From the NCBI GenBank assembly GCA_000004985.1, contig GG738851.1: a stretch of 64,000 nucleotides of DNA; one strand, written 5' to 3'. The position numbers were made by a program, and so were the translations under genes. Source of the stretch: Naegleria gruberi (Eukaryota). The first letter of the stretch is position 1. Each line of letters opens with the position of its first letter. The notes below the pieces were generated by a model. That model saw only the letters and a list, made by a program, of their open reading frames with translations. It searched no databases and was not told the origin of the DNA. Positions 12,579 to 57,280 of the stretch are shown here, piece by piece.

Positions 12579-14045
12579 TTATCGAGAATTGATTTTTTCA
12601 ATCATTTGTATGAGGAAAGTACGATCCTTCAAGAGGTAATTGTACTCGTCTCTTGTAATAAAATTATAGGTCATTAATGCTTCCATGATAATTTCTCTAT
12701 CGTGCTTAAAGTAAGTTCCACATTCAAAGAATGCAGATCCATTAAGTTTCACTGCTTCCAGTACGAATTCTCTGTCCTGTTTCACAATTTCTGGGCATTC
12801 CAATATAGCAAGAGTATTGTGTTTGAAATATGCCAAAATGACATCTCTGTCCTGCTTTAACTCGTCAGCAGCATATTCAGCAACTCTTGGATTAATATCG
12901 ATTGCCTCCAAAATAAACTCTTTTTCTTTGATCAAATCTGTTGAATAGGTTATAGCTCTGGGATTGATTTTGATAGCTTTCTTGATGATTTCAACATCTG
13001 ATTTTAAACTTGGAAGAGCAGCATAACCCAGAGCATACCCATTAGAGGAAACTGCCAAGTAAACCAAATCTCTATCTCTCCTTAAACTTTCGTGAGCATA
13101 TTTGAAAGCGCATCCCTCTTGAGTAATAGCTGCTGTCACAATTTCCACATCCTGTTTGAGTGATTCGTCAGCATCCTTTAGTGCATCTCCACATTGTTTT
13201 ACTGCCTCTAATACTATCTCTTTGTCCTTTCTAAATTGATGAGGAACTCTACCAAGCACTTTTCCATTTCTTTTAACGGCTTGAAGAGCAAATTCTCTGT
13301 CGTTCTGTATTTCTGGACTTGCCAGTAGAAATCCTGCAACATAATTAGGTCCAATTGATTCCAAGAGTATTTCCCTATCTTGTTTAACATATTTTGCGGC
13401 AAATTGAATAGAAGTTCCATCAAGTTTGACAGCATTTAACAAAATTTCTCTATCTTTTTTCATATTTTCTGGAATGGTCATTATTGTAATAATTGGGTTC
13501 TTTTTGACAGCCTCAAAAACTACCTCTCTATCATTTTTCAATTCCTTGCTGCAATGTGAAAAAGCACTCATCGAATTTCTGATAGCTTTCAACACTAATT
13601 CTCTATCCGACCTAAGATCTTCATTTGCAAACTCCAAGGCATCTCCACATCCATTCTCAATAGCCAATCGTACCAATTCTTGATCGTTTCGCAACTCGTT
13701 TACCATCAGTTCAAAAGCTCTCCCATTCACTCTCAAAGCCTTCATCACAAATTCTCGATTTTTCTTCAATTCATTACTTGCATCATAAATTCTACAAAAA
13801 TCCAATCGGATAGCCTTCAGCATAATCTCTTCATTGTTTCTCATACACTCAGAGATGAATAAATTATCCAACTTCATCCTCTCCAATGCCAGTCCATACA
13901 TGATCGGATCAAATTCGAATAGTTGGGCAATTTCGGAAAAGAAGGGAATTGCCTTGAGAGCCTTTCTTTCCAGGTCATATTTTTCTCGTAAAATTCGTGA
14001 TGAACAGTTTGTATCTAAAAGCAAAATTGTGCAATGTGTTGTCAT
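12579..14045 (-). CDS. DUF4116-like tandem-repeat protein (paralog of the repeat region in 2819..5467)
   Basis: 488-aa ORF from the ATG at 14045. It is built almost entirely of the same ~37-aa repeat (KNDREVVFEAVKKNP.., KQDREILLESI.., RKDKEIVLEAVKQCGDAL..). Confidence 0.6.
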   Translation of the reverse strand: MTTHCTILLLDTNCSSRILREKYDLERKALKAIPFFSEIAQLFEFDPIMYGLALERMKLDNLFISECMRNNEEIMLKAIRLDFCRIYDASNELKKNREFVMKALRVNGRAFELMVNELRNDQELVRLAIENGCGDALEFANEDLRSDRELVLKAIRNSMSAFSHCSKELKNDREVVFEAVKKNPIITIMTIPENMKKDREILLNAVKLDGTSIQFAAKYVKQDREILLESIGPNYVAGFLLASPEIQNDREFALQAVKRNGKVLGRVPHQFRKDKEIVLEAVKQCGDALKDADESLKQDVEIVTAAITQEGCAFKYAHESLRRDRDLVYLAVSSNGYALGYAALPSLKSDVEIIKKAIKINPRAITYSTDLIKEKEFILEAIDINPRVAEYAADELKQDRDVILAYFKHNTLAILECPEIVKQDREFVLEAVKLNGSAFFECGTYFKHDREIIMEALMTYNFITRDEYNYLLKDRTFLIQMIEKINSR

Positions 14046-14142
14046 TTTTTTTGTAAAGTTTTTAACAAAGAAGTTCTTGTTTCAATGTTAGTTCCTCAAT
14101 TTAGTTCTTATACGTATTCATATCTTTTTAAGATGATCGTAA

Positions 14143-14231
14143 GGCGGCTTAGCACAGTGGCAGTGCATCAGTCTTGTAGGCAGAAATGCTGAGATAACTG
14201 AGGGTCGAGGGTTCAATTCCCTCAGTCGCCT
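14143..14231 (+). tRNA. tRNA-Thr(UGU) with a 17-nt intron
   Basis: Cloverleaf read by hand: acceptor GGCGGCT/AGTCGCC (one G-U), D-arm GCAC-AGTGGCA-GTGC, anticodon stem TCAGT/ACTGA, loop CTTGTA|intron GGCAGAAATGCTGAGAT|A, T-arm GAGGG-TTCAATT-CCCTC, discriminator T. A T4 run (CCTTTTGTC) follows as a Pol III terminator. Anticodon TGT. Confidence 0.7.
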
Positions 14232-14629
14232 TTTGTCATTTTCATATTTTTTTACATTCTGTTTACTAGTATGGCAATCAGTAACCAACATATTCTTTAT
14301 TATCATAATAACTTCGGCTGATCATTTTCAAGCCTTCCTTGGTTGTATCCAGACAAGGCTTTCATAAAACTACCAAAAAAAATACATCATCACTATCTGT
14401 GGTTGAAAACACACTCATTGTAGTAGGCTTTTTGATTGTTTCGCAAACATTTCAAAGCCTTTTTTTGCTAATAGTAGTATTGTGTGATCACCATCATCAT
14501 TGTCTGCTCTGATTGTATAAACAACAAAAAGAACAATAACATCACAACGGAGGAATTTTTGATAGTACATATATAAATATTTAATATTTAATTATTATTA
14601 TTTAATAATCGAGAGAGAATATATTCAAA

Positions 14630-27161: not shown

Positions 27162-27242
27162 GCAGGGGTTCCCGAGTGGTCAAAGGGGGTAGACTCAAGT
27201 TCTACTGCGCAAGCTTCGTGGGTTCAAATCCCACCTTCTGCA
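27162..27242 (+). tRNA. tRNA-Leu(CAA), class II with long variable arm, no intron
   Basis: Acceptor GCAGGGG/CTTCTGC (two G-U), D-loop GAGTGGTCAAA, anticodon stem GTAGA/TCTAC, loop CTCAAGT, long variable arm, T-arm GTGGG-TTCAAAT-CCCAC, discriminator A. A T4 run (GTTTTGTC) follows. Confidence 0.7.
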
Positions 27243-27776
27243 GTTTTGTCTCCTAAAATTTTTCCTTGAGAGGTTTACCGAACTTGTTAATTGCATTACC
27301 TTCCAGATGATGTCTAGTATATATTATGTAAATATTGTGCCTTCATTATATGTATTCACAAAGACAATCGATTATGATGACATGCATATCAAAGTGTTGA
27401 AAATAGTTTAGCTCTAAAAACAAATTACTGATGAAAATTAAATTTATGAATGTGAGCTGAGTGAATGAAATTGTCTCTTGTTCAATTAAAAAAAAAGAAA
27501 CCTTCATGGCGCCGAACAGCAAAAGAGCTACCATTGCTATTCCTATCACTCAGTATTTGCAGTACTGTAAATCCACAGCAGTTTTGAAATTCCTTAAATA
27601 TCAAGAACACATTGAATGATATCAGATTGAAAAAATTCATTTTCAATACAGTCTAGTATATCAAAATGTTTTAATTGATTGAACTGCGAATGAATAGTGT
27701 CGATATGAAAACATCTAGATTTCCACATCTTAGTGCTTTTTGAAAAGCGGTGTATGGTTTGAATACTTACATCGTC

Positions 27777-27827
27777 GTTAACTAGATTTCTGATAGAGTT
27801 GAACAGTGAATGATTAAGAAAGTAATT
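27777..27827 (+). promoter_or_regulatory. Conserved 51-bp element immediately upstream of 5S copy 1 (shared with copy 3)
   Basis: GTTAACTAGATTTCTGATAGAGTTGAACAGTGAATGATTAAGAAAGTAATT matches 52652..52702 (reverse complement) with only a few mismatches. Flanks beyond this are unrelated, and copy 2 lacks it. Confidence 0.4.
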
Positions 27828-27945
27828 GGCTACGGCCATATCACGATGAATGCACCTCATCCCGTCCGATTTGAGAAGTTAAGCATCGTCGAGCCACATC
27901 AATACTGAGGTTGGAGACAACTTGGGAACCTGTGGTGCAGTAGTC
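27828..27945 (+). rRNA. 5S rRNA gene, copy 1
   Basis: GGCTACGGCCATATCACG...CATCCCGTCCGATTTGAGAAGTTAAGC...GGTTGGAGACAACTTGGGAACCTGTGGTGCAGTAGTC. The core CATCCCGTCCGATyTGnGAAGTTAAGC and the helix I pairing GGCTAC/GTAGTC match eukaryotic 5S. It differs from copies 2 and 3 at GCAGTAG versus GCTGTAG. The first T5 run lies about 25 nt past the 3' end rather than immediately after it. Confidence 0.85.
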
Positions 27946-28113
27946 ATGGCTTATTTAGATTTCTTTTTCTTTTAAATCCAAGAATGATTTAATTTCTTCC
28001 ACTTGTTACCGTTCCACCATGCATAAAGAGGTTTCACACCCTTTTTTACATGTCTATGAGCCTTCCTATCAGCCCATCCCTTTTCTCTTCTTCAAAGAAC
28101 TTGTTATTTGGTC

Positions 28114-28323
28114 TCAATCATCAACTTCAAATGGACCCAATATAAATGGTGATAATTTACAATAATCACCTCTCGAAGCAGAGAAAACTTCAATTGTTTC
28201 ATAACCTTCCTTAGTCACCTTTTTACTTCTATATGAGTGTTTAGCACATTCAACTTTTCCTCTCATTTTTTTATATTGAATTGAATCAATCCATTTAATC
28301 AGTGTTATGGTCAATGGAGACAA
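28114..28323 (-). CDS. Small hypothetical protein (69 aa)
   Basis: ORF MSPLTITLIKWIDSIQYKKMRGKVECAKHSYRSKKVTKEGYETIEVFSASRGDYCKLSPFILGPFEVDD with no recognisable family. It lies 170 bp downstream of 5S copy 1. Confidence 0.25.
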   Translation of the reverse strand: MSPLTITLIKWIDSIQYKKMRGKVECAKHSYRSKKVTKEGYETIEVFSASRGDYCKLSPFILGPFEVDD

Positions 28324-28743
28324 CTCTACTCAAGCATTAATATATTCTAATCAAAACATGTCATCCAATGCCAATATCAACCACACTGCAGAGCAAACTT
28401 CCACACCCAGTGTTACTCTTGCAGAGAACGCTTTGTTCCAAAAATAAAATTATAATTTCTGCTATTATTGGAATTTTATTAGACATTAATATTTATAAAT
28501 CAACTTTTATTCCTTTATGTTATCAAGATTTATTCAAAATCATAAGGTATTCCATTATACATTTTCAAGTACTTGGAATCACTTCTTTTTACAAATCCAA
28601 AACAAAATCATTTATTGTTAAAATATCATTTCGTCTTCACACGTATCAAGAACTCCACAAGATCATTGCAAGCTGTCTTAATATTATTTGCTATTGTCAT
28701 ACTTTTTGTTTCTTCGTTCTGTTCACCAAAGTCTCCAGGAGCC

Positions 28744-29652
28744 TCATTCAACAATTCGATTGACTTGTTTGGCCAAAATATGACCATCATCATCATATTC
28801 GCTCTTAACATAATTAAATATCGATTCAGCATCGAAAGCTACTACACATATTTCCTTTGGCTCCATCATCCCAAATACAAAGTCACTACTAACTCCACAA
28901 TGGTAATTGAGCTTATTCCATTCCATTTTTCTAATATGACAGTAAAAAGATGTACAAAATCTATCTTTCACTCCTTGTCCTGATTTACCAACATATAATA
29001 TTGGTAACCTCTTTGAAACAATAAAATAGATAGAATTTGGTTTGTAAATGCCGACTGAGTGTTTTTTGAAAAAGTTAGAGCTCACAATTTCGGCAAGTAC
29101 TTGTGAAGGCCATGTGGGGTATGGTTTTTCGTCAATAATGGTATCATCCGAGATAGTACATTCTTTATATTTGCCAGAATTGCCTACAAAGAATGGAATA
29201 TTACGGTATTCGCTCTTCTTCCAATCGCCATCTTTCCAGTCATAATACTTGTCTATTTGATTGAAAAACAATTCCTCTAAACTATACGGAAATTTGGCAC
29301 CAGGCAAGACATTGTTTGGGAATCTATTCCTCAATTCTTTCTTCAACTCTACCAATGATTTCTTTTTAAACAACTCACTTAATTGTTTATCTTGTTCGAT
29401 GATTTTAGGTATACATGGTTTGACATGAGCCTTATTGATCAATATAGGTGAAGAAGTAATTTGAAAGGGTTCATTCTTTACGAATAGTGAATACATGTTA
29501 CCTTTGTCCACAACTCCTGATACGTTTCCATCATTATCCAGAAACAGTTTAACATCGATACTACCTTGCTTGAGCTTGTTTGTAATCTCCTCGTATGAAA
29601 TGTCAAAGAATTGAACCTCAATTCTTAGATTTGAATTGCTTTTGTTCATCAT
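28744..29652 (-). CDS. Orphan protein with a C-terminal GIY-YIG-like nuclease motif
   Basis: 302 aa from the ATG at 29652. The C-terminal segment SIYFIVSKRLPILYVGKSGQGVKDRFCTSFYCHIRK fits the GIY-(10-11)-YIG-...-R-...-H spacing of GIY-YIG modules. The rest is unrelated to known families. Its paralog is 31423..31890. Confidence 0.45.
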   Translation of the reverse strand: MMNKSNSNLRIEVQFFDISYEEITNKLKQGSIDVKLFLDNDGNVSGVVDKGNMYSLFVKNEPFQITSSPILINKAHVKPCIPKIIEQDKQLSELFKKKSLVELKKELRNRFPNNVLPGAKFPYSLEELFFNQIDKYYDWKDGDWKKSEYRNIPFFVGNSGKYKECTISDDTIIDEKPYPTWPSQVLAEIVSSNFFKKHSVGIYKPNSIYFIVSKRLPILYVGKSGQGVKDRFCTSFYCHIRKMEWNKLNYHCGVSSDFVFGMMEPKEICVVAFDAESIFNYVKSEYDDDGHILAKQVNRIVE

Positions 29653-29901
29653 TTTCGTTTATATTTGTTACATTTATTTCTTTATAATTAAGATTTCTAT
29701 TTACAAACTGTATTATCTATTTCTCATTGGTTGCTTGACTCCTCTTTCCAAACCCTGTCTGAGTTCCTCCATTAATGTAAGAATGTTTTGCCCAATGTGA
29801 TTGGGGCACCTAGTGATTGTATAATTTTAATGTTCCGAGTCATACAAGGCAGAACAAGGAGGCCTTTAAACAGCAGTTTATTGTTCTGATGATTTGCAAT
29901 T

Positions 29902-30351
29902 TCATTCGTCCTCAATTTTACACTTTACAGCAAGCATCTTGCTCAACAAAAGAATGCAAATTTCTTTTTGTTCTTTTTCGTCACAAGTTTCAAGAACTTC
30001 GGTTATAGCTTGATATTTTTCTAGTATCTGAGCTTTTCCTTGTTCATCATTTGCTTCTTGTTTGTTAAATTCTTCTCTAAAAATCTTTTCTCCTATGATG
30101 ATTTTATTGGTTGACTTGGCGTTTTTAAATTCAGCATTATCTGACAATTGTGAATAATTTAATTGAAAGCCTTTGCAATGAAAAGTAATTTTTTCATAAT
30201 ATTCACTACCCGGATTGCTCTTCAACTGTGCAACATCTTTCAAATAGCTACTAAAACTTTGATATTTTTCATCTATTAAACCATCTTTAATCTGCTTTGC
30301 AGTATCGCGATCTCCATCATATACAACCGAAATCAACTCTTCGCTGTCCAT
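29902..30351 (-). CDS. Hypothetical protein (149 aa)
   Basis: ATG-initiated ORF with coding-like composition. It is transcribed divergently from 30410..31318 with only 58 bp between the two start codons. Confidence 0.35.
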   Translation of the reverse strand: MDSEELISVVYDGDRDTAKQIKDGLIDEKYQSFSSYLKDVAQLKSNPGSEYYEKITFHCKGFQLNYSQLSDNAEFKNAKSTNKIIIGEKIFREEFNKQEANDEQGKAQILEKYQAITEVLETCDEKEQKEICILLLSKMLAVKCKIEDE

Positions 30352-30409
30352 TTTTTTTTGAGGAATTTTTCTAAAAATAACATGAAAAGAATCTATTCAA
30401 CGTGAAAAA

Positions 30410-31318
30410 ATGACTAAAGCATCAGCAAGCAAAACACTCCACGAAACTGTTACAACATTGCACAATAGTGCACAAAGCAGCAATATTTGTGATGATCTTG
30501 CATACTTTTATTTTTTACTAAAGGTAATAAAAGAGGGTGTACATAACTTTACAGATATCCAGAATTTTGATGCAAAAACGAAGGTGAAGAACAGTGCTTT
30601 TTTTGAACAGCTCGTTGAAAAAAGGGTTGGGAATTGTATTGTTCATACTTGTGCGAATTTTGAAGCTATCACGAAAGAATTCTTGAAGAAATGTATTCGC
30701 GAGTCCAAAACACAAGATCTAACGAACAGGCAAGAGCAAGAATATAACGAAATCGCAAAACGCGCATTGAAGCTTGTCCATTGCGAATTATTCGATGCTG
30801 AATGGAATGTAAAGGACAACTATCATTTTGCTCTGAAATTTAACAATAGCATTTTAGATAGTGTCAGGAAAGACCTTTATTGCATTGACATTAACGGAAA
30901 TTTAGTAGATAATAATTTGGAATTTTGGAGATTCGATAAGGAACTGGATTGTAAATATACTGTAATGGAGGTTGACGTAAAGACTGTTCTTAAAGATAAT
31001 TTTTTTGCTTACTTTGATAATTTAAACCTTGAAGATATTAAAAATTTGAATGTAAAGTCTGTTACCGCCGCCAAGATCAGGGACAAAACAGCGGACAATT
31101 ACTCATACAATGATGATGGTATTCAGTTTTATTTTGAAGATTTCGCAAAGAAAAGGGGTTATTTTGTAATTCAACACTGGTGTCTTGTGAAACATATAAT
31201 GGGATGGGAGACATGTATTGAATCAGACTTCAGTAAGCTTAAAGGATGTACTTTACCATCCAATGACCAAAATACAAGCAACGACGAGATTGATGATGTT
31301 TTGAATTTTACTTTATAA
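30410..31318 (+). CDS. Hypothetical protein (302 aa)
   Basis: ATG-initiated ORF with no recognisable domain. Head-to-head partner of 29902..30351. Confidence 0.4.
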   Translation: MTKASASKTLHETVTTLHNSAQSSNICDDLAYFYFLLKVIKEGVHNFTDIQNFDAKTKVKNSAFFEQLVEKRVGNCIVHTCANFEAITKEFLKKCIRESKTQDLTNRQEQEYNEIAKRALKLVHCELFDAEWNVKDNYHFALKFNNSILDSVRKDLYCIDINGNLVDNNLEFWRFDKELDCKYTVMEVDVKTVLKDNFFAYFDNLNLEDIKNLNVKSVTAAKIRDKTADNYSYNDDGIQFYFEDFAKKRGYFVIQHWCLVKHIMGWETCIESDFSKLKGCTLPSNDQNTSNDEIDDVLNFTL

Positions 31319-31422
31319 TTTGATCATGATTGCCAAACACTTATGAAAATTACAGTATGAAAAACTCCATATGAAAAACTCATCTATAAATGACTTCAAT
31401 TTAAACCAAACAGTTTACAAGA

Positions 31423-31890
31423 TCATTTCTTTATATTGTTAAGATTTAATTTTACAATTCTTTGGCGAATATGTTTAATATCAACGGAGTGTTTTTTGCA
31501 AAACTTTGAGTCCAATATAGTAGCCAACTCTAATGATGACCAAGTAACAACTGGATCCTTGTTCTTAATTATAGAGTCAGATATGGTGCATTCTTCATAC
31601 TTTAAAGATCTGTTTGCCAAGAAGAATGGAATGTGACAGTATTCATTATTTTTCCAATCCCCACCTTTCCAATTGTTAAGGTTGTCAATCTTATTGAAAT
31701 AAGACTCCTCTCCGTTTCCAGATAAACTTGGTAATATATTCGTTGGGTATCTTTTTCTAGTTTGTTCCTTCATTTTAACAAACAATTTTTCATCGAACAA
31801 TTTCTTCAATTCTTTATCTTGTACAACGAACAAAGGCAGGTATTTGATGGGACCTTGATTGAGTGAAGTTGATTTGTCCTCTTGATTCAA
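31423..31890 (-). pseudogene. 5'- and 3'-truncated duplicate of the 28744..29652 gene (lacks the N-terminal ~55 aa, any ATG, and the GIY-YIG-like C-terminus)
   Basis: The translated region HVFIKSELNQEDKSTSLNQGPIKYLPLFVVQDKELKKLFDEK...KRYPTNILPS...GGDWKNNEYCHIPFF...YEECTISDS...KKHSV aligns along its length to residues ~56-215 of the intact copy. The listed start is a TTG and the frame has no ATG. The 5' flank motif CATTTCTTTATAATTA(TTA)AGATTTCTATTTACAA is shared (29670..29705 versus 31975..32010). Confidence 0.45.
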
Positions 31891-32175
31891 TTCACTCTTT
31901 ATAAAAACATGTCATGCTGAGTTGAAATTTTACTCGCATCTTCTCCTGGTATCATTTCATTGACATTTTAATGTTTCATTTCTTTATAATTATTAAGATT
32001 TCTATTTACAATCAATAGATTCGTTGCATTCACTGTTCAAACATTCAAAGACTGTAGCGGGATAGTCGCCATATTCCTGGCAGGCTTCTGGTCTTAATTG
32101 TAAAATGAAATAACAAATATTTATTCTGATGTTTAATTAATTTTTAAAAGCAAAACTGATTCAAAAATTTAGACT

Positions 32176-32586
32176 TTAAGAAATTGATTTCTGTTTCAAT
32201 TTACGCTTGTAAATATCAACTTTCTTATTCTTCTTGCCACCTCTTCTATTCTTTCTATTCTTTCTATTCTTCTTTCTGTAAGTGTCAATTCTTCTCTTCT
32301 TATTAAATCTTCTCTTCTTTCCATAAACATCAATCTTCTTTCTGATAATTCCCTTCTTTCCAAATTTCTTCCATCCTCTTCTCTTTCTTCCATAGGTGTC
32401 AATGTAGTTGTTGAGCTTTCTATTCTTCTTTCTCTTCTTGAGATTTCTCTTCTTGTTATTCTTTCTAATGAACAAGGAAAGTGTTGAGGCAGCAGTTGAT
32501 TCTTCTGCAGAAACTCCAGAAGTGAAAGAAAGTGCAAGAATGGCCAAAGTCAAGGCAATCAATAAGATTGAAACAAATCTTTTCAT
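32176..32586 (-). CDS. Secreted, extremely basic tandem-repeat protein
   Basis: Signal peptide MKRFVSILLIALTLAILALSFTSGVSA, then four to five repeats of (I/V)D(T/V/I)YG(R/K)KRR embedded in K/R runs. The alternative listed frame 32196..32537 (RRE-rich) is an artefact of the same repeat DNA. Confidence 0.4.
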   Translation of the reverse strand: MKRFVSILLIALTLAILALSFTSGVSAEESTAASTLSLFIRKNNKKRNLKKRKKNRKLNNYIDTYGRKRRGWKKFGKKGIIRKKIDVYGKKRRFNKKRRIDTYRKKNRKNRKNRRGGKKNKKVDIYKRKLKQKSIS

Positions 32587-33328
32587 TTTTTGTTTTTTGA
32601 TTGTGTTTGAGAAGTGAAACATGTTTCAACAGTATTTAAATGTTTGAAAAGAATAGTTTGATTAGTATATTGATTTTTATGATTTTCCATAAAGAGAGTA
32701 GCCACAGATTTTGGACATTGTACATTTGGTCTTTGTTAATCGGTGCGGATAATTGAACAAGAACAGAATGAAAGAACTTCAATGGTTGGATTGTGCTCAA
32801 AGATGTGGAATATCTTGGAATGAAAAAAGTTCCAATATTTAAAGAACGAAAGGACTCTGTAAACTGTTGGTGGACTTTTTGAATTAATCTGATACATCGT
32901 ACTTTTTTTATTCTTGTGCTAGTAGTTTCAAGTTGTCCAATGAAGAGTGGGAATCCTCTCTTTAACTTTCGTATATTTTGAAAATGAGATAAACAAGAGG
33001 TGCTTACCACTCTATACCAAGTTATTGTTAGATGAATTTGCACTCGAGTCAAATTTTTGACACTATTGCCAATAATTGAGTTTTGATTTTTTCACCTTAG
33101 GAGTAATGATATCTTAGCTACCTCTCATTTAATTTTAAAGATTTCATCTCTAAAAACCACAGAGAAAATAATAAAAGATTGGACTCTTTCATTTTTTTTT
33201 ACAAAAAACAAGGTAATATACAAGTTATGAGATAGGTTTTGGATATAATAGTATATATTTCTTTGCAAAGAAATTCAATAAACCTTACCAAGTATGTGAG
33301 AACACAAATTAAGGAACAAAGATAAAAA

Positions 33329-33446
33329 GACTACAGCACCACAGGTTCCCAAGTTGTCTCCAACCTCAGTACTGATGTGGCTCGACGATGCTTAACTTCT
33401 CAAATCGGACGGGATGAGGTGCATTCATCGTGATATGGCCATAGCC
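33329..33446 (-). rRNA. 5S rRNA gene, copy 2 (inverted relative to copy 1)
   Basis: Reverse complement matches copy 1 along the full 118 nt apart from GGCTATGG (versus GGCTACGG) and GCTGTAGTC (versus GCAGTAGTC). It is immediately followed on its own strand by TTTTTATC, a Pol III terminator. Confidence 0.85.
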
Positions 33447-33513
33447 ATTCATCTCTCAAATACAATGAATATAAAGAACATTAGTTATTAAAATATTGTA
33501 AACTGGATAAAAA

Positions 33514-34970
33514 ATGTCGCAACATAAGAACGTTGTTATCATTGGTGGAGGAGTGGCCGGTTTGTATGCTGCCAAAACACTTTCGGATAACCAAGTTTCG
33601 AATTTTATAATTTTGGAAGCAAGTTCAAGACTTGGAGGAAGAGTTTGCTCTGATTCCGAAAGAGGTATCGAATTAGGAGGTGTGTTTACAACCAACACAT
33701 TTAAATACTAATATTTAAACTACTTTTAAAACAGCTGAATATGTTCATGGAGAGGAAACTATTTTGTGGGATATTTTGGTCAACCAATTAAATGTGGAAT
33801 TGGAATTTAATCATGACATGACAAAACTAACTCCAAAAGAATGTGGATTGGGATTAGTAGTTGGTGCGTAATTTATCAAATTATTGAAATTGGAATTAAT
33901 GAAATTTCAAAGATGGGAAAATGCTTCAAGCTGACAATCCTATATTTGCAGAATTGGATGAAATTCTTGAAAAGCTAATAAATGATGAAGAGCTAAAATT
34001 TGCAAAAGATATGACACTTAAGGAATGGCTGATTTGGAGGGAAATTCCAGAAAAGTATCACTTGTTAGTTGACTCAACAATTGCCCAGGAAAATGCAACT
34101 TGTATTGATGTGTACAGCGCTAAGGGAGCTCAAGAAGATTTAATTGCTGAGTTTAATAGTGAATTTGGAGATGGGAATTACTTTCTTAAGGGAAAGAATA
34201 CTTTGGAAAATTTGATAATTCCATATTTGGTTAAATCCATCCAACAAGAACAAATTAGATTGGATTATGCTGTGGATTCCATTGATTACACTTCCAACCA
34301 AATCAAAATTAATGGAGGCGATATTATTTGTGATAAGATTATCCTCACTGTTCCATTAACAACTTTACAACATAATTTAATTCAATTTACTCCAGATTTA
34401 TCACCAATCAAAAAGCATTTAATTCAAAATCAATTCAACATGAATGGTGGCACCAAGATTATTCTCAATTATAAGAAACCATTTTGGAGAGAACAATTCC
34501 CAAATGTGAATGTTGTTTGTGTTGGAGATGATGATCCCTTAATTTCTCAATTCTGGTTTTCGAGCACATCTGAGGAACAATCTGAGAAATTTGGACACGT
34601 AATTACTGGATTTTCAATGAGTAATAGAGCAAATTATGGAATTGTGATGGGAGAGGAGAAGGTTAAGGATCATTTCAGAAAAATGATTCAAAATATTTGT
34701 GGATTAACAAGTGAAAATGATGGATTTATTGGTGGAATGGTAAGGAATTGGCAAGATGTTGAGCACATTTCTGGAGCTTATGCATCGGTCAATACTTCAG
34801 AAGAATCGAGACAAAACTATATTGGAAACCCTAGATTGGCCCTCTCTCAACCTATTGAATCAAAGATTTATTTTGCAGGTGAATTGTTCTGTACTCATTC
34901 GCCTGCTACTATTCATGGAGCAATGGAAACTGGAAGAGATGCTGCTTTGAGAGTAATAGCCGAAATGTAA
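33514..34970 (+). CDS. Flavin-containing amine oxidase (polyamine-oxidase-like). Model: join(33514..33679, 33735..33863, 33913..34970).
   Basis: Exon 1 has the FAD Rossmann fold VVIIGGGVAGLYAAKTLS...ILEASSRLGGRV. A 55-nt intron (GG|GTGTGT...AAAACAG|) and a 49-nt intron (VV|GTGCGT...TTCAAAG|) restore ...RGIELGAEYVHGEETILWD...GLGLVVDGKMLQADNPIF.... The total is 1353 nt (451 codons). The C-terminus has the amine-oxidase motif ...YFAGELFC..HGAMETG. Confidence 0.7.
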
Positions 34971-35208
34971 AGTTTATTCGAAAGTGTTTGTTTTTACCTT
35001 AGATACTCAGTTGACCAGATTTCAGCTAATTCTTAAGAAATCAAAAAATTTTTAAGAAAGATTTAATTTCTAAATAGCCATCAATCACATGCCAATAAAT
35101 ATGGGGAAATAAAAGTCAAAAAGTCAATGACTAGTCTTGAAAGGTGTTTCCAAAAGTAATGTGAATGGCAACTTTGCACTTATTGAAATTGTTATTTAAA
35201 CCAACCGA

Positions 35209-35946
35209 ATGTTTCTAATAGAAAACAATAACAAAAAAAGAAACAAAATGATTATGCAAGAATTTGAACCAAAGAGAAGAAACACAAAGATTTCAACAAG
35301 TTTTGATGAAAGTCCAATTACTAATATTTCACTTTCGAATAAGAATACTTCAAGTTTCGATGAACAAGTTCCAATTTTCAAAGCAAAGAGACAAACACCA
35401 TTCCCATATTTGAAGAGAAAGTCAATCAGAATTGACTTGGTATTGAAGCAACAAAAACTTGCTCAAAAGAAGAAGAATGAACAAAAGTTATTGGAATCTT
35501 TGAGAAATGACAAGAAACTGTTAGAAAATGAAAACATGACCTTGAAGGGAAGAATTATGCAAATGGAATTTATACTTCAACAATTAAAATCTACCAGACC
35601 TAGCACACAAACTCACTCAACTCAACCAAAGAAATCTAACAAGTCAACTGACTCAATTCAATGCACCAAATGTCAAAAGTGCCTCTCCTCCAAATATTTC
35701 AAATATCATGATAGAATTTGTGGAAACACCAAGCTCAATCGTTTACTTTCAGAAACGGATTTGAAAAGATTACAATTTCTAAGAAAGAATCAAAAAACTG
35801 TATTAAATTTCTCACCAAAGAATGACTGGAGAAGAAAGAGGGAAGAGTTTTTGGCTCAAATTAAGAGCGCCCAAAAGAAGCACTCTTCAAATTGTATTAT
35901 TTTCTTTAGAACACAAGAAAAGAGTTTCTATAAATCAATAAAGTAA
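35209..35946 (+). CDS. Hypothetical basic protein with a coiled-coil/leucine-zipper-like segment and a C-terminal C2HC-like Cys cluster
   Basis: 245 aa from an ATG. Contains KRKSIRIDLVLKQQKLAQKKKNEQKLLESLRNDKKLLENENMTLKGRIMQMEFILQQLK, then CTKCQKCLSSKYFKYHDRICGN. Confidence 0.35.
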   Translation: MFLIENNNKKRNKMIMQEFEPKRRNTKISTSFDESPITNISLSNKNTSSFDEQVPIFKAKRQTPFPYLKRKSIRIDLVLKQQKLAQKKKNEQKLLESLRNDKKLLENENMTLKGRIMQMEFILQQLKSTRPSTQTHSTQPKKSNKSTDSIQCTKCQKCLSSKYFKYHDRICGNTKLNRLLSETDLKRLQFLRKNQKTVLNFSPKNDWRRKREEFLAQIKSAQKKHSSNCIIFFRTQEKSFYKSIK

Positions 35947-35985: not shown

Positions 35986-36069
35986 TCCGATGAGACGGAA
36001 TCGAACCGCCGACCACAGGATAACAGTTTCAGCTACAGTCCCATGCTCTACCAGCTGAGCTATCATCGG
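35986..36069 (-). tRNA. tRNA-Tyr(GUA) with an 11-nt intron
   Basis: Reverse complement reads CCGATGA-TA-GCTC-AGCTGGTA-GAGC-A-TGGGA-CTGTAG|CTGAAACTGTT|A-TCCTG-TGGTC-GGCGG-TTCGATT-CCGTC-TCATCGG-A. The acceptor stem is perfect, the anticodon is GTA, and the intron sits at the canonical 37/38 position. A T4 run follows on the gene strand. Confidence 0.8.
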
Positions 36070-52347: not shown

Positions 52348-52533
52348 CGGAGGAAGAAGAATTGAAGTTGGAGAGGTGTCCTCTATAAATCTTTTTTTAC
52401 TGTTGTTTTTGAATTGTTATGATTGTTCAATTAAGGAAATTTACATTCCCGCCAAATATTAAATTCTCATTGTAAAGATCTTGAATCGAACAAAAAATTT
52501 GAGTTAAAGTGATATTTGTTGAAGAAAACAAAA

Positions 52534-52651
52534 GACTACAGCACCACAGGTTCCCAAGTTGTCTCCAACCTCAGTACTGATGTGGCTCGACGATGCTTAA
52601 CTTCTCAAATCGGACGGGATGAGGTGCATTCATCGTGATATGGCCGTAGCC
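52534..52651 (-). rRNA. 5S rRNA gene, copy 3
   Basis: Identical in length (118 nt) and nearly identical in sequence to copy 2. It has GGCTACGG at the 5' end like copy 1, and a Pol III terminator TTTTGTTTTC directly after the 3' end. It shares the 51-bp upstream element with copy 1. Confidence 0.85.
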
Positions 52652-52702
52652 ATTCACTTTCTTAATCATTCACTCTTCAACTCTATCAGAAATCTAGTTA
52701 AC
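52652..52702 (-). promoter_or_regulatory. Conserved 51-bp 5S upstream element (copy 3)
   Basis: Reverse complement GTTAACTAGATTTCTGATAGAGTTGAAGAGTGAATGATTAAGAAAGTGAAT matches 27777..27827. Confidence 0.4.
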
Positions 52703-52742: not shown

Positions 52743-53288
52743 TTAAACAAAGAATGAAACAATAATCATCAATGCAATCAAAATGCTTGATCCAATCATC
52801 TTTTCAGCACCAGAACAAACATATTTAGTTCCAGAAAGACAAACTCCATTATATGCAGAATAATCAACAGTTTGTTTAACACTTGAACAGGCACTATCAT
52901 AATAAACAGTCAAATATCTACAGGCAGTACTCTTATAAGAACCAGCACCTGGAATAACAACACAAGTATCCAATGGGAAGATTTGTGAGACAACTAAATT
53001 GGAAGTAGCACAAGTAGTGTCAGAATAAATTGATAATTGTAAAGTATTCTTGGAACCAATGGAAGGAACAGTTGAAGTACATTGACTAGTGGTATAGAGT
53101 GAGGTGGTGTTACTACCAGTACAGGTTGGGTTGGAAGTACAGTTAGAAGTTGGAGTGTAGAGATCCAACATTGGGAGAGAGCTTGAACACTTGGAGTCAG
53201 TGAAGAGGGAAGATCTGATGTATTGACCACTGACTGATGTGATGGCAATGAGAGCAAAGAGGACAATGGAGAGAATGATAGTTTTCAT
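52743..53288 (-). CDS. Small secreted Cys-rich protein with GPI-anchor-like C-terminus (ponticulin-like), paralog A
   Basis: 181 aa. Signal peptide ending ..SVSGQY, eight Cys conserved with paralog B, S/T-rich, and a C-terminal hydrophobic tail (ILIALMIIVSFFV) preceded by small residues (SGAE). Confidence 0.55.
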   Translation of the reverse strand: MKTIILSIVLFALIAITSVSGQYIRSSLFTDSKCSSSLPMLDLYTPTSNCTSNPTCTGSNTTSLYTTSQCTSTVPSIGSKNTLQLSIYSDTTCATSNLVVSQIFPLDTCVVIPGAGSYKSTACRYLTVYYDSACSSVKQTVDYSAYNGVCLSGTKYVCSGAEKMIGSSILIALMIIVSFFV

Positions 53289-54344: not shown

Positions 54345-54881
54345 TTAAAAAACAATGGAAAGCAAAGCAGCAACCATCATTACAACAGTGGTAAGACCAA
54401 TCTTTTGAGCATTGTTACACAAGTACTTGGTACCCAAATTACAGACACCATTGAAAGCAGCATAATCAACAGTGTTCTTAACAGTCTTACAGTCAGCATC
54501 AGAGTAGAGAGTCATAGTCTTACATCCAGTACTCTTCATGCTTGAACCATCAGTAGATGAAATACATGTGTCAATTGGCAAGATTTGTGAGATGGAGATG
54601 GCTCCACAGGTGTTATCAGCATAAATGTTGACTTGCAAAGTGTTCTTACCACCAACTGGGACAGCAGAAGCACATGCAAGAGAGGTGTAAACAGATGTGG
54701 AATTGACACAAGTCACTGGAACAATCGAGCTGGCGCAATTGTCAGTTTTAACATACATATCCAAGTAAGCTGGAGAAGCAGTACATGTTGAATCCTTGTA
54801 CAAGGTGGTTCTCATGTATTGAGCATTGACGCTAGCAAGAGCAGCAATGAGTAAGGCAGCAATAATGAAGATGGATTTCAT
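54345..54881 (-). CDS. Small secreted Cys-rich GPI-anchor-like protein (ponticulin-like), paralog B
   Basis: 178 aa. The signal ends ..ASVNAQY. Alignable to paralog A throughout (QYMRTTLYKDSTCTA versus QYIRSSLFTDSKCSS; GKNTLQVNIYADNTCG versus SKNTLQLSIYSDTTCA; TVDYAAFNGVCNLGTKYLC versus TVDYSAYNGVCLSGTKYVC). Confidence 0.55.
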   Translation of the reverse strand: MKSIFIIAALLIAALASVNAQYMRTTLYKDSTCTASPAYLDMYVKTDNCASSIVPVTCVNSTSVYTSLACASAVPVGGKNTLQVNIYADNTCGAISISQILPIDTCISSTDGSSMKSTGCKTMTLYSDADCKTVKNTVDYAAFNGVCNLGTKYLCNNAQKIGLTTVVMMVAALLSIVF

Positions 54882-55128: not shown

Positions 55129-57280
55129 TTATCGATGTTTGAGTTTGTGTTTCAATTGTCTCTTGTCTGAGAGTGCCTTCTTCCACTTCTTTTCGTTTTG
55201 ACCCATGGTATTCTTGTGTCTGACGTTTCTGGACATCTTCAACATCATGTATGGCTTGTTCTTCTTCTTTTGCTTTTGAGTTTCTCCAGGTTGTTCCCAC
55301 TTTCTTCTGTTGAATTTCTTCTTTTCTGGTTCAAATTCATTGTCTGAATCGTCACCCTTAGAAATGTCACCAATATCATCTTCGTCAACATTTTCATTGC
55401 TAAAGATTGGGGTTTCTCTCTTTCTCTTCTTACCCATAAGCTTTTCCATTTCCTTGCTCTTTTTGAGTTTCTTAATCAACTCAAAGTCTTCTTGTGTAAG
55501 AATTCTGGTTTGATCAATTCTTGGGCCCTTTGGTTCCTCTGAAGCTTGTTCACCATCTTCAATGACTTCTTCTTCTTCACTGTCCAATTCGAAAACATCT
55601 TCCAAGTTCAACAATTCACCACCTTCCTCGTTATCAGATCCCTCAGAATCATCAGAGTCATCCATAGCAATATTGACATCATCTTCACCGTCGCTTGGAA
55701 CATCAATCCATTCACCTTCTTCATCAGAATCTTCACCATCAACAGCCATGAGATCCTTTTCAGATTCCTTTCTCTTATTGTATTCTTCCAATAATTCAAT
55801 GCCATCAACACCTTCAGCAACTCTTTGAGTACCAAATTCTGGAATGACTGCTTCAGGATCGTGATCTTTACCTCTGTCTTTCTTGTTCAACATCTTTGGA
55901 GAAAGTTCTCTGAAGAGTGTTATAATACCTCTAGCAGCATGGAAAACTTGTTTATCCTTATGTTTAGAATATTGAGATAAATCTCTCAAGAGGGTCTTGG
56001 TCATAACTCTTGGTTGTCTTGAACAAATAACTCTAATTGTATTCAAACCAGCTGCAATAACTTCTGGTTTGGAATGGTCATTAGCAAAATTGTTAGCAAT
56101 AGTCATGACGACTGGATGAATAACATCAGGAGGAACAAAATCGTGAACTGATTGGGCAGTAATGGCAAGAATCTTGGTAACATCTAAAAAATTGAAATAT
56201 ATCAGAAATTAAAATGTCACAAAACTTACTGGCTTGGGCAGGGAGTAAATATTTTTGAATGAAAGGATAAAAATTGAGAAGAACTAATTGATTTGAGGAA
56301 ACACATCTTGAAATAACGTCCAACATTAAAATTCTTACTTCAAATTTGTCATTTGAACTCTTCAATTTAGCAAAGAGTTTTTCAGAGAAACCTTGTGGAT
56401 CATTCAACATGTTGAGAACGTTCAATGATTCAATTTCCATACCCTTTTCCTTATGTTTATCCTTCTTTTTAAGTTGTTTGAGAGCTTTCTTAAATTTGTT
56501 TTCCTTTTTCTTTGTCTTTTTAGAGTGAATATTGTTAACTTTAAACTTTAAATCTCTAATCAAGTGACCAAGATCTCTATCATCTGATTTTTGTTTTGTT
56601 CCGTCTTCATCTTCTTCAGCTTCATCAACTAATTCACCCAAGAAGAATTTAAGTGCAATAACAACAAGAGCAGTATCTTCAGCAAAACATGATTGGGAAA
56701 TAACATTGACACATCTATCATCATTCCAAATACCTCTTCTATAAAGTGTAATTAAAAGTTGCAAACTCTTCTTTGCAGCAATACGGAATGAATCTTTCAA
56801 CATGGAAAAGACAAAGTTTTGCAATGATCTATTTACATTAGGATTCTTCTTCTTCATATTGATTTTAGTAATATCGGAGAGAATGTGTTTATAAACCATA
56901 CTTCTAAGAGTCTTATCATGTACTCGGAAAAGTTTAAATAATACTGGTATTAAAGTTTTAGAGTCAAGAATGTCGTTATTACGGAAAGCAATGAGTGTGA
57001 TAGCAAGTTGTCTTCTCAATTTTGGTTCTAATTCTAATTGTTTTGTTTCCAACAAATCCAAAATCATTGGTGCTGCAGTTTTGGTTTCTGCTTTATAAAC
57101 TTTGCAAGCAACACTCAAAAATTGCAACAATTTGACAAAATATTTAGCATCATCGGCTGGTCTCAATTTTGCAACTTCGGTTTGATTTTCCAAGTGTTTC
57201 AATTGAAGGAGGAAATCATCTTTATAAGCCTTTGGATCTTTAAAAACTTGTTCTTGAAGATGAAGGAGATCGATACTCAT
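55129..57280 (-). CDS. SDA1: SDA1 (ribosome-biogenesis / nucleolar protein). Model: complement(join(55129..56183, 56230..57280)).
   Basis: The N-terminus MSIDLLHLQEQVFKDPKAYKDDFLLQLKHLEN matches the SDA1 start (LQNLIKRDPE.YKEEFLQQ). A 46-nt intron (A|GTAAGT...TTTTTTAG|) joins the two listed ORFs in phase 1 to give 701 aa. The C-terminal half has the characteristic D/E-rich acidic block and K-rich tail. Confidence 0.7.

What the first reader, a model, noticed from the sequence alone, without database searches (positions are those of the whole stretch)
27162..33446. Pol III gene cluster: tRNA-Leu next to an inverted pair of 5S rRNA genes bracketing a 5.4-kb block of orphan genes
5S copy 1 (+, 27828..27945) and copy 2 (-, 33329..33446) are near-identical 118-nt genes in inverted orientation. 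tRNA-Leu(CAA) sits 585 bp upstream of copy 1. The bracketed interval contains no housekeeping gene. It holds a small orphan ORF, a GIY-YIG-like gene, its decayed duplicate, a head-to-head pair of unknown genes 58 bp apart, and a secreted poly-basic repeat protein. Dispersed 5S genes are often dragged around by, or serve as targets for, mobile DNA. The combination of inverted identical repeats, nuclease-motif genes and duplicate decay makes this the most accessory-looking segment of the window.
Basis: partly seen in the sequence, partly recalled or inferred. Interest (0 to 1): 0.75.

Follow-up and report, generated by a model that had tools for sequence, protein, structure and literature searches.

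The report
Naegleria 5S genes flanking orphan genes
Two of the roughly 279 scattered 5S rRNA genes of the amoeba Naegleria gruberi bracket a 5.4-kb patch of genes with no recognisable relatives; this layout is ordinary for the genome and nothing shows the patch to be mobile DNA, although a close relative differs right at one 5S boundary.

Summary
The window is Naegleria gruberi NEG-M scaffold_7, about 160-224 kb.

The inverted repeat is only the 119-nt 5S gene itself (97.5% identical). I found no extended terminal repeat, no target-site duplication, and no transposase, integrase or reverse transcriptase.

These three 5S copies are already in a published list of 279. In that list 35 neighbouring pairs lie 6 kb or less apart, so tight pairs are common in this genome.

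None of the five ORFs in the interval matches a Pfam family. The 302-aa gene has one truncated copy 2.3 kb away, and synonymous sites between the two are saturated, so the duplication is old. Only one other relative turned up among 1.84 billion protein cluster representatives, on a contig with no 5S or tRNA gene. Its GIY-YIG assignment is unproven: Pfam gives E=0.034, below the cutoff, and the profile and structure tests failed.

One supporting point remains. A metagenomic contig that is 97% identical across the neighbouring amine-oxidase gene loses all similarity 24-34 bp outside 5S copy 2.

Interest is low.

The parts
27162..27242 (+). tRNA-Leu(CAA), 81 nt, no intron
   Evidence: ARAGORN; Rfam RF00005, 48.7 bits
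27777..27946 (+). 5S rRNA copy 1 (gene 27828-27946) plus 50 nt of 5' flank shared with copy 3. This is a weakened variant: loop E AGUA changed to AAUA, a helix I G.A mismatch, and no T-run immediately 3' of the gene.
   Evidence: Rfam, 95 bits. 169 nt are 97% identical to 52534-52702 in inverted orientation. Listed as scaffold_7:187831-187942 in Table S1 of PMC3369914.
28114..28323 (-). 69-aa ORF, probably not a gene, or a decayed remnant
   Evidence: About 4 ORFs of this length are expected by chance. It is not in the protein collection. No Pfam or PDB match, even for joined neighbouring frames.
28744..29652 (-). 302-aa near-orphan gene, annotated 'predicted protein' of N. gruberi. It has a central domain shared with the truncated paralogue and a C-terminal domain shared with P0003.
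   Evidence: 100% identical to an NCBI N. gruberi protein and the only hit among 5.8 bn protein clusters. phmmer over 1.84 bn cluster representatives finds only P0003. No Pfam hit at E<=0.1 apart from noise.
28807..29040 (-). C-terminal conserved domain (about aa 205-282) with a GIY-YIG-like signature: IY-x10-YVGKS-x6-R...H...AFDAE
   Evidence: 39% identity to P0003 over 64 aa, pairwise E=2e-12. Pfam PF01541 E=0.034 at 14.9 bits, against a cutoff of 22.6. hhalign against six validated GIY-YIG domains gives E=0.23. AF2 pLDDT 34-42.
29902..30351 (-). 149-aa acidic protein, D2V402 / NAEGRDRAFT_78468, no known domain
30410..31318 (+). 302-aa protein, D2V403 / NAEGRDRAFT_46517, no known domain, divergent from the previous gene with a 58-bp gap
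   Evidence: The weak hit to yeast Pop2 (E=0.002) was not reproduced.
31423..32011 (-). Truncated old paralogue of the 302-aa gene (homology 31477-31908) plus a remnant of its promoter region (31951-32011). It has no in-frame ATG and lacks the C-terminal domain.
   Evidence: BLASTP E=4e-36 at 49% identity; tblastn; DNA 64% identical in the coding part and 81% in the upstream part; alignment; pS 0.75 (saturated), pN 0.30
32176..32622 (-). Small poly-basic repeat protein with a signal-like N-terminus. The likely start is the Met at 32586.
   Evidence: Translation. K+R make up 45% after the hydrophobic segment, with four [IV]D[TVI]Y repeats. Internal DNA repeats D2 and D3. No family hit.
33328..33446 (-). 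5S rRNA copy 2, intact, followed by TTTTT. It is 99.2% identical to copy 3 over 127 nt.
   Evidence: Rfam, 104 bits; scaffold_7:193327-193443 in Table S1 of PMC3369914
33470..33480 (.). The point where 97% similarity to the close relative's contig L003 ends. It lies 24-34 bp outside the 5' end of 5S copy 2, at its TATA-like box.
   Evidence: blastn aligns L003 224-2436 to window 33480-35700 at 97.3%. L003 1-223 has no comparable match anywhere in the window and carries no 5S.
33514..34970 (+). Flanking amine oxidase gene D2V405 (two exons, 33514-33711 and 33921-34970). It is divergent from 5S copy 2, with 67 bp between them.
   Evidence: Pfam PF01593, E=3e-31; cluster membership
52533..52702 (-). 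5S rRNA copy 3 (gene 52533-52651) plus the 5' flank shared with copy 1
   Evidence: Rfam, 105 bits; scaffold_7:212532-212648

Best explanation
This is an ordinary stretch of the Naegleria gruberi chromosome. Two of the genome's roughly 279 dispersed 5S rRNA genes lie 5.4 kb apart in convergent orientation. Each is an independent RNA polymerase III unit with an internal control region, a short upstream TATA-like element and a T-run terminator. A tRNA-Leu gene lies nearby.

Between the 5S genes are four or five fast-evolving, lineage-restricted protein-coding genes. One of them was partly duplicated locally long ago, and that copy has since lost its start codon and its C-terminal domain.

The near-identity of the two 5S genes reflects selection on 5S rRNA, and possibly concerted evolution. 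It does not indicate a recent insertion. The interval is a variable, accessory-type region, but it is not a transposon, a homing element or a viral insert.

Shown: the identity and positions of the genes, the extent of the repeats, the rarity of the gene family, the genome-wide habit of 5S pairing, and the breakpoint in the relative.

Inferred: how the Pol III units work (from the published N. gruberi 5S analysis and general knowledge) and that the block does not move.
For: - Organism and position: one search identifies N. gruberi. The 5S spacings of 5496 and 19205 bp match scaffold_7 entries in Table S1 of PMC3369914.
- 5S pairing genome-wide: of 264 full-length 5S copies, 35 neighbouring pairs lie 6 kb or less apart. 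25% of copies have a neighbour within 6 kb, against 7.4% expected under uniform scatter.
- The inverted repeat is confined to the gene. The block has no other DNA similarity to the rest of the window.
- 5S conservation is independent of locus. Contig L011, from another organism, is 96-98% identical.
- No mobile-element protein domains were found. No relatives were found in viral contigs.
- The gene family has no other N. gruberi member, and its sole foreign relative is not next to a Pol III gene.
- The internal duplication is old: pS 0.75 (saturated) and 64% nucleotide identity.
- Base composition matches the flanks, at GC 0.32-0.33.
Against: - A 97%-identical contig from a close relative (L003) diverges completely just outside 5S copy 2 and has another gene there instead. 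Some structural change has therefore happened exactly at a 5S boundary.
- A run of five domain-less ORFs is unusual for this window. A rough Fisher-type count of 0 of 5 against 16 of 23 gives P of about 0.01.
- The 302-aa protein carries a GIY-YIG-like motif with the right spacing, conserved in its one relative.
- I could not read the other 34 tight 5S pairs of the genome, and I could not search the three other block genes for homologues in other Naegleria species.
Confidence: 0.7

Rival explanations
1. A 5S-flanked cassette, as with the wtf/wag genes of fission yeasts. In this reading the dispersed 5S copies act as portable homology. Lineage-specific genes lying between or beside them are gained, lost or moved by non-allelic recombination or gene conversion between 5S copies, which makes 5S sites hot spots of structural change.
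For: - The block is bracketed by 5S genes.
- Tight 5S pairs are 3-4 times commoner than chance genome-wide.
- Copies 1 and 3 share an extra 50 nt of flank in inverted orientation, which shows 5S-containing segments have been duplicated locally.
- The close relative L003 differs right at the edge of copy 2.
- Lineage-specific secreted paralogues also sit beside copy 3.
- There is precedent in Schizosaccharomyces (PMC9562144).
Against: - The cassette genes are not a multi-copy family. The 302-aa family has no other N. gruberi member.
- The flanking 5S genes are inverted, so excision as a circle is impossible.
- L003 has no 5S at the junction. Recombination within 5S, or insertion into a pre-existing 5S site, would leave one there.
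- The internal duplication is ancient.
Confidence: 0.13
2. 5S and tRNA genes act as chromatin boundary elements, through TFIIIC/Pol III insulator activity. They persist around a patch of differently regulated, lineage-specific genes. In this reading the pairing is functional rather than a relic of duplication.
For: - The block is delimited by Pol III genes, with tRNA-Leu plus 5S on one side and 5S on the other.
- 5S copy 2 sits only 67 bp from the start codon of a divergent Pol II gene.
- Insulation by Pol III genes is established in yeasts and mammals (my own knowledge, not tested here).
Against: - No chromatin or expression data are available.
- Copy 1 looks functionally weakened.
- Nothing in the sequence distinguishes this from chance placement in a genome where 5S pairs are common.
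Confidence: 0.08
3. A mobile or selfish element whose GIY-YIG-type nuclease (the 302-aa protein) targets Pol III genes. In this reading the inverted 5S genes act as its ends. An integrated viral or horizontally transferred island is a variant of the same idea.
For: - The GIY-YIG-like motif has compatible spacing and conserved Arg and Glu positions in both family members.
- Pfam PF01541 is the second-listed weak hit, at E=0.034.
- The block consists of orphan genes.
Against: - The Pfam score is below the cutoff. The profile-profile test gives E=0.23, the PDB profile search finds nothing, and the structure models are too poor to use.
- There are no terminal repeats beyond 5S, no target-site duplication, no integrase, transposase or reverse transcriptase, and no capsid or viral relatives.
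- The element would be single-copy.
- Base composition is that of the host.
- The paralogue has decayed and the duplication is saturated.
Confidence: 0.04

Closest known systems
Dispersed 5S rRNA genes of Naegleria gruberi (279 putative copies; Table S1 of PMC3369914)
   Same: The three copies in this window are entries in that list: scaffold_7 187831, 193327 and 212532. They are unlinked to the rDNA unit, carry an internal control region and an upstream TATA-like box, and often lie in close pairs.
   Different: Nothing differs in kind. Copy 1 is a slightly degenerate variant. The paper did not examine what lies between the pairs.
[quoted passage not shown]
   Same: Lineage-restricted, fast-evolving genes sit between dispersed 5S genes, one gene pair is divergently transcribed, and there is structural variation at 5S sites.
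   Different: - wtf and wag are multi-copy families found at most 5S sites, and sequences are highly similar between loci. Here the genes are single-copy apart from one old local duplicate.
- wtf loci are usually flanked by direct 5S repeats, whereas these are inverted.
- Sites lacking wtf keep a lone 5S gene, whereas L003 has none.
GIY-YIG nucleases (Pfam PF01541; I-TevI, UvrC N-terminal domain, Slx1)
   Same: The C-terminal domain has IY-x10-YVG, an Arg 9 residues after the Gly, a His or Tyr soon after, and a Glu about 45 residues later. All are conserved in the one relative. The low-confidence model predicts the strand-strand-helix...strand-helix order.
   Different: No test is significant: Pfam 14.9 bits against a 22.6 cutoff, hhalign E=0.23, and no PDB or fold match. 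The domain is only about 80 aa at the extreme C-terminus, and no conserved Asn was identified.
Mobile elements that target Pol III genes (Dictyostelium TRE retrotransposons, yeast Ty3, tRNA/snRNA-targeting Dada DNA transposons); recalled from my own knowledge
   Same: Accessory DNA lies next to tRNA and 5S genes.
   Different: There is no reverse transcriptase, integrase or transposase, no LTRs or TIRs, no target-site duplication and no additional copies.

Membership tests
5S rRNA (Rfam RF00001) | Covariance-model score above the gathering threshold over the full model | tested here: met
   95, 104 and 105 bits against a threshold of 38, covering model positions 1-120 for all three copies
5S rRNA (Rfam RF00001) | Intact helices, a conserved loop E, and a Pol III T-run terminator (a functional gene rather than a pseudogene) | tested here: inconclusive
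   Copies 2 and 3 have all pairs standard and TTTT(T) directly 3' of the gene. Copy 1 has AGUA changed to AAUA, one G.A mismatch in helix I, and its first T-run of 4 or more about 20 nt downstream. Expression was not testable.
GIY-YIG nuclease (Pfam PF01541) | Profile match at or above the curated cutoff | tested here: not met
   E=0.034 at 14.9 bits against a 22.6 cutoff, covering only profile positions 3-30. The relative P0003 gives no hit. Positive controls (I-TevI, two UvrC, two Slx1, YhbQ) score 41-70 bits.
GIY-YIG nuclease (Pfam PF01541) | GIY and YIG strands about 10-11 residues apart, a catalytic Arg about 8-9 residues after YIG, and a distal Glu | tested here: inconclusive
   By eye the motif reads SIYFIVSKRLPILYVGKSGQGVKDRF...H...AFDAE, conserved in P0003. 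hhalign puts YVG...R...H in the expected register, but at E=0.23.
GIY-YIG nuclease (Pfam PF01541) | Alpha/beta GIY-YIG fold | tested here: inconclusive
   AF2 mean pLDDT is 34 for the full length and 42 for the domain with a 2-sequence alignment. Foldseek against PDB finds nothing at E<=0.001.
Composite or TIR DNA transposon | Terminal inverted repeats that belong to the element, extending beyond a host gene | tested here: not met
   The inverted repeat is exactly the 119-nt 5S gene. The flanks are unrelated.
Composite or TIR DNA transposon | Transposase or integrase gene, and a target-site duplication | tested here: not met
   No such Pfam or NCBIfam domain appears in any ORF or in the six-frame translation of the spacers. 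No matching short direct repeats are visible at the outer 5S edges.
Composite or TIR DNA transposon | More than one copy in the genome | tested here: not met
   Nothing in the window resembles the block. There is no second N. gruberi protein of the 302-aa family. Unannotated genomic copies could not be searched.
5S-flanked cassette (wtf/wag type) | The cassette gene family recurs at many 5S sites | tested here: not met
   The family consists of one full copy and one truncated copy, both inside this block. The foreign relative's contig has no 5S.
5S-flanked cassette (wtf/wag type) | The syntenic site in relatives lacking the cassette keeps a single 5S gene | tested here: not met
   L003 is 97% identical up to 33480 and has no 5S in its remaining 223 nt. 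L003 is short, so a 5S further away is not excluded.

The most novel reading that the evidence does not exclude
In Naegleria gruberi the roughly 279 dispersed 5S genes could mark hot spots where gene order breaks and lineage-specific genes accumulate. The many tight 5S pairs (35 pairs 6 kb or less apart) would then bracket variable gene cassettes genome-wide. That would be a protist counterpart of the 5S-associated wtf/wag system, with the 302-aa GIY-YIG-like protein as a possible selfish nuclease. My evidence leaves this open. A close relative does differ exactly at the edge of one 5S gene, and orphan or lineage-specific genes lie beside two of the three 5S genes in the window. I could not read the other 5S loci.
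Probability: 0.1. Interest if true: 0.6.

Novelty: already known. Interest (0 to 1): 0.2.

Why it matters
As it stands this is routine. The 5S copies are already catalogued and the genes between them are annotated hypothetical proteins.

It would matter only if the boundary difference seen in one close relative turned out to be general. In that case dispersed 5S genes would be drivers or markers of genome rearrangement and gene turnover in a free-living excavate. The near-orphan C-terminal domain would then deserve a test as a new, very divergent GIY-YIG-type nuclease.

Tried and rejected
- **Structure of the 302-aa protein.** AF2 gave pLDDT 34 for the full length and 42 for the C-terminal domain with a 2-sequence alignment. 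Foldseek against PDB was therefore meaningless.
- **GIY-YIG by profile.** Pfam is sub-threshold. The PDB profile search found nothing. hhalign against an alignment of six Pfam-validated GIY-YIG domains gave E=0.23.
- **Spurious homologue.** The ZP-domain protein P0002 matched a short low-information stretch only, so I rejected it.
- **Viral origin.** No relatives of the 302-aa family or of the 30410-31318 protein were found in IMG/VR contigs.
- **Weak Pop2 hit.** The 30410-31318 protein hit yeast Pop2/CAF1 at E=0.002. Neither Pfam (no CAF1 hit at E<=10) nor BLASTP against human CNOT7 reproduced it, so I treat it as chance.
- **Synteny with other Naegleria species.** I compared N. lovaniensis (L004), a contig whose amine oxidase clusters at 90% or more with an N. 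fowleri protein (L005), and another Naegleria-like contig (L006). Only the amine-oxidase gene is shared, there is no 5S within 10 kb, and the upstream neighbour is a Peptidase_M50B gene that is absent from the window. This is uninformative, because these may be orthologues of a paralogue.
- **The extra gene in L003.** Its N-terminus shows no similarity to the Peptidase_M50B genes or to anything in the window. A 46-nt, 80% match of L003 156-198 to 33185-33228 is far below the 97% seen next door, so I treat it as inconclusive.
- **JGI metagenome scans for the N. gruberi 5S sequence.** A 49-mer gave no hits and a 24-mer gave 14 short contigs. Each has a single 5S and none is syntenic with the window or carries block genes.
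- **Source organism of P0003.** I could not identify it (GCA_037189345.1).
- **Bacterial promoter and terminator scan.** It is irrelevant for a eukaryote.
- **Exact-sequence look-up.** The 302-aa protein is not on record in the contig index.

Full report
**Identity of the window.** The 302-aa ORF at 28744-29652(-) is 100% identical to an NCBI "predicted protein" of Naegleria gruberi on a 693,645-bp contig. The start-to-start spacings of the three 5S genes in the window are 5,496 and 19,205 bp. These match scaffold_7 entries 187831, 193327 and 212532 in Table S1 of a published survey of N. gruberi 5S genes (PMC3369914). The window is therefore roughly scaffold_7:160,004-224,003 of strain NEG-M. 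It is AT-rich (GC 0.31-0.37 throughout) and gene-dense.

**Check of the observation.** Rfam finds 5S rRNA at 27828-27946(+) with 95 bits, at 33328-33446(-) with 104 bits and at 52533-52651(-) with 105 bits. ARAGORN and Rfam both find tRNA-Leu(CAA) at 27162-27242(+).

Copies 1 and 2 are convergent. They form a 119-nt inverted repeat, 97.5% identical, that ends exactly at the gene borders. The longer repeat actually involves copy 3. Copies 1 and 3 share 169 nt at 97%, which is the gene plus 50 nt of 5' flank, again inverted. Copies 2 and 3 are 99.2% identical over 127 nt.

Copy 1 is the weakest of the three. It has a G-to-A change in the conserved loop-E AGUA, a G.U-to-G.A change in helix I, and ATGG instead of TTTT directly after the gene. 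A 5S gene on a metagenomic contig from another organism (L011) is still 96-98% identical to these copies. Near-identity of 5S copies is therefore what selection on the RNA produces, and it is not evidence of a recent event.

**Genome-wide context.** The published list holds 279 putative 5S genes, of which 264 are at least 110 nt long. I parsed the table and found 35 neighbouring pairs 6 kb or less apart, 21 of them 3 kb or less. 66 of 264 copies (25%) have a neighbour within 6 kb, against 7.4% expected under uniform scatter over 41 Mb. Scaffold_7 alone carries 14 full-length copies. A pair 5.5 kb apart is thus one of many, and the paper already scores N. gruberi 5S genes as partly clustered and unlinked to the rDNA. 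The table gives no strands, so I cannot say how often pairs are inverted.

**Content of the interval.** ORFs of 148, 149, 155, 302 and 302 aa cannot be chance in this composition, since 0.01 or fewer are expected. The 69-aa ORF can be, with about 4 expected. None of the five matches Pfam or NCBIfam or PDB sequences convincingly. By contrast, 16 of 23 scanned genes elsewhere in the window carry a Pfam domain.

Three of the ORFs are annotated N. gruberi proteins: the 302-aa protein P0001, D2V402 and D2V403. The poly-basic ORF has a signal-like N-terminus. After it, 45% of residues are K or R, with four [IV]D[TVI]Y-led repeats. For the other three genes, "orphan" means only "no known domain".

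**The 302-aa family.** The word-indexed search of 5.8 bn protein clusters finds only the protein itself. A full phmmer pass over 1.84 bn cluster representatives adds one true relative, P0003 (312 aa, E=1.8e-4), and one spurious ZP-domain hit. A profile search adds nothing more.

P0003 comes from a 2.7-kb contig of an unidentified, highly fragmented assembly (GCA_037189345.1, GC 44%). That contig carries no 5S or tRNA gene. Only the C-terminal ~65 residues are significantly similar (39% identity, pairwise E=2e-12).

That domain reads IY-x10-YVGKS-x6-R-x7-H ... AFDAE, with the Tyr, Gly, Arg, His and Glu conserved in both proteins. The spacing fits GIY-YIG nucleases. However:
- Pfam PF01541 reaches only E=0.034 at 14.9 bits, against a cutoff of 22.6.
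- hhalign against six sequences that I first validated as GIY-YIG by Pfam gives E=0.23.
- A PDB profile search finds nothing.
- The AF2 models are unusable, with pLDDT 34 and 42.

GIY-YIG is a reasonable lead, at roughly even odds by my judgement. It is not an established membership.

**The duplicate.** The ORF at 31423-31890(-) matches aa 56-202 of the 302-aa protein (49% identity, E=4e-36). About 60 nt of the region upstream of the start codon is also duplicated, at 81% identity. The two copies are in direct orientation, 2.3-2.4 kb apart, with the divergent 149-aa/302-aa gene pair between them.

The copy has no in-frame ATG at its start, lacks the N-terminal 55 residues, and lacks precisely the conserved C-terminal domain. 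Over 143 aligned codons, synonymous differences are saturated (pS 0.75) while pN is 0.30. The duplication is therefore old, and the shared central domain was under constraint for much of that time. This is local segmental duplication followed by truncation. It is not the signature of a recently arrived element.

**Tests for mobility.** I found none of the following:
- terminal repeat beyond the 5S gene
- target-site duplication at the outer 5S edges
- transposase, integrase, reverse transcriptase or capsid gene, including in six-frame translations of the spacers
- similarity of the block to the rest of the window
- relative in viral contigs
- compositional difference from the flanks

It is met as far as it can be tested, because the family has no other member in the N. 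gruberi proteome.

**Comparative evidence.** I spent the last homology search on the flanking amine oxidase (D2V405), whose start codon lies only 67 bp from the 5' end of 5S copy 2.

The homologous loci from N. lovaniensis (L004), an N. fowleri-like contig (L005) and a further Naegleria-like contig (L006) share only that gene with the window. They have a Peptidase_M50B gene upstream and no 5S within 10 kb. At 55-57% identity they may correspond to a paralogue, so they say little.

The informative case is L003, a 2,436-bp ENA metagenome contig. It is 97.3% identical to window 33480-35700. Its remaining 223 nt have no counterpart of comparable identity anywhere in the 64-kb window. They contain no 5S gene, and they encode the N-terminus of a different gene divergent from the amine oxidase. 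Similarity stops 24-34 bp outside the 5' end of copy 2, at its TATA-like box.

So in a very close relative the neighbourhood changes exactly at a 5S boundary. This does not prove the block is absent there. L003 is short, the extra gene could be an insertion in that lineage or a deletion in NEG-M, and the block might lie beyond it.

**Interpretation.** The best-supported reading (about 0.7) is an ordinary chromosomal region. Two independent Pol III 5S units and a tRNA gene happen to flank a patch of fast-evolving, lineage-restricted Pol II genes with an old internal duplication.

The most interesting alternative (about 0.13) is that dispersed 5S genes promote gain, loss or movement of neighbouring genes through non-allelic recombination. 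[quoted passage not shown] Three of that system's defining features fail here. The genes are not a multi-copy family, the flanking 5S genes are inverted, and the relative's junction retains no 5S.

A boundary or insulator role for the Pol III genes (about 0.08) cannot be tested from sequence. A nuclease-driven or viral mobile element (about 0.04) has no positive evidence beyond the unproven motif.

**Verdict.** The 5S copies are already catalogued and the genes are annotated hypothetical proteins, so interest is low. Two leads may be worth a cheap follow-up: the 5S-edge breakpoint in a close relative, and the conserved GIY-YIG-like C-terminal domain.

Noticed in passing
window 27777-27945 (+) and 52534-52702 (-): 5S copies 1 and 3 share 50 nt of 5' flank in addition to the gene (169 nt, 97%), in inverted orientation 24.6 kb apart. 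Copy 2 has an unrelated 5' flank.
   Followed up: yes
window 35986-36069 (-): ARAGORN, run without intron modelling, calls this tRNA-Thr(TGT). With canonical numbering the loop reads C32 U33 G34 U35 A36, followed by an insert of about 11 nt. It is more probably an intron-containing tRNA-Tyr(GUA). The other 'Thr(TGT)' at 14142-14232(+) is a different sequence that does fit Thr(UGU) with an intron.
   Followed up: partly
window 52743-53288 (-) and 54345-54881 (-): Two paralogous small Cys-rich proteins (181 and 178 aa, 45% identical, E=2e-47) lie just beside 5S copy 3. Each has a signal-like N-terminus and a hydrophobic C-terminus. This is another lineage-specific tandem pair next to a 5S gene.
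   Followed up: partly
window 33446-33514: The 5' end of 5S copy 2 and the ATG of the divergent amine-oxidase gene D2V405 are only 67 bp apart. The Pol III upstream element and the Pol II promoter must therefore overlap. The close relative L003 has a 94-bp divergent intergenic region with a different gene in place of the 5S.
   Followed up: partly
window 33-2786 (+): A 917-aa ORF combines a PIF1-like helicase domain with a C-terminal WWE domain. PIF1-type helicases are sometimes parts of Helitron-like elements. I did not examine this.
   Followed up: no
window 2972-5467 (+) and 12579-14045 (-): Two proteins are built from DUF4116 repeats (5 and 13 copies). The first is fused to a protein kinase domain.
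   Followed up: no
window 30410-31318 (+), aa 134-206: There is a weak phmmer match to S. cerevisiae Pop2/CAF1 (E=0.002 against PDB sequences). Pfam (no CAF1 hit at E<=10) and BLASTP against human CNOT7 do not reproduce it, so it is probably chance.
   Followed up: yes
window 27947-28323 (-): Downstream of the 69-aa ORF, the two other reading frames continue with protein-like stretches (...PNNKFFEEEKRDGLIGRLIDM, ...KGVKPLYAWWNGNKWKK). This might be a frameshifted gene remnant abutting 5S copy 1. No family or PDB match was found.
   Followed up: partly
L001 1294-2232 (GCA_037189345.1 contig JBBCKJ010059794.1): The only other member of the 302-aa family (P0003, 312 aa) sits on a 2.7-kb, 44% GC contig of an unidentified, very fragmented assembly, and also in SRA run SRR27999909. 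I could not determine the organism, so the family's phylogenetic spread is unknown.
   Followed up: partly
window 55129-57280 (-): The SDA1 ribosome-biogenesis gene appears as two adjacent ORFs (384 and 325 aa) separated by 19 bp. This is consistent with a short intron or a frameshift.
   Followed up: no
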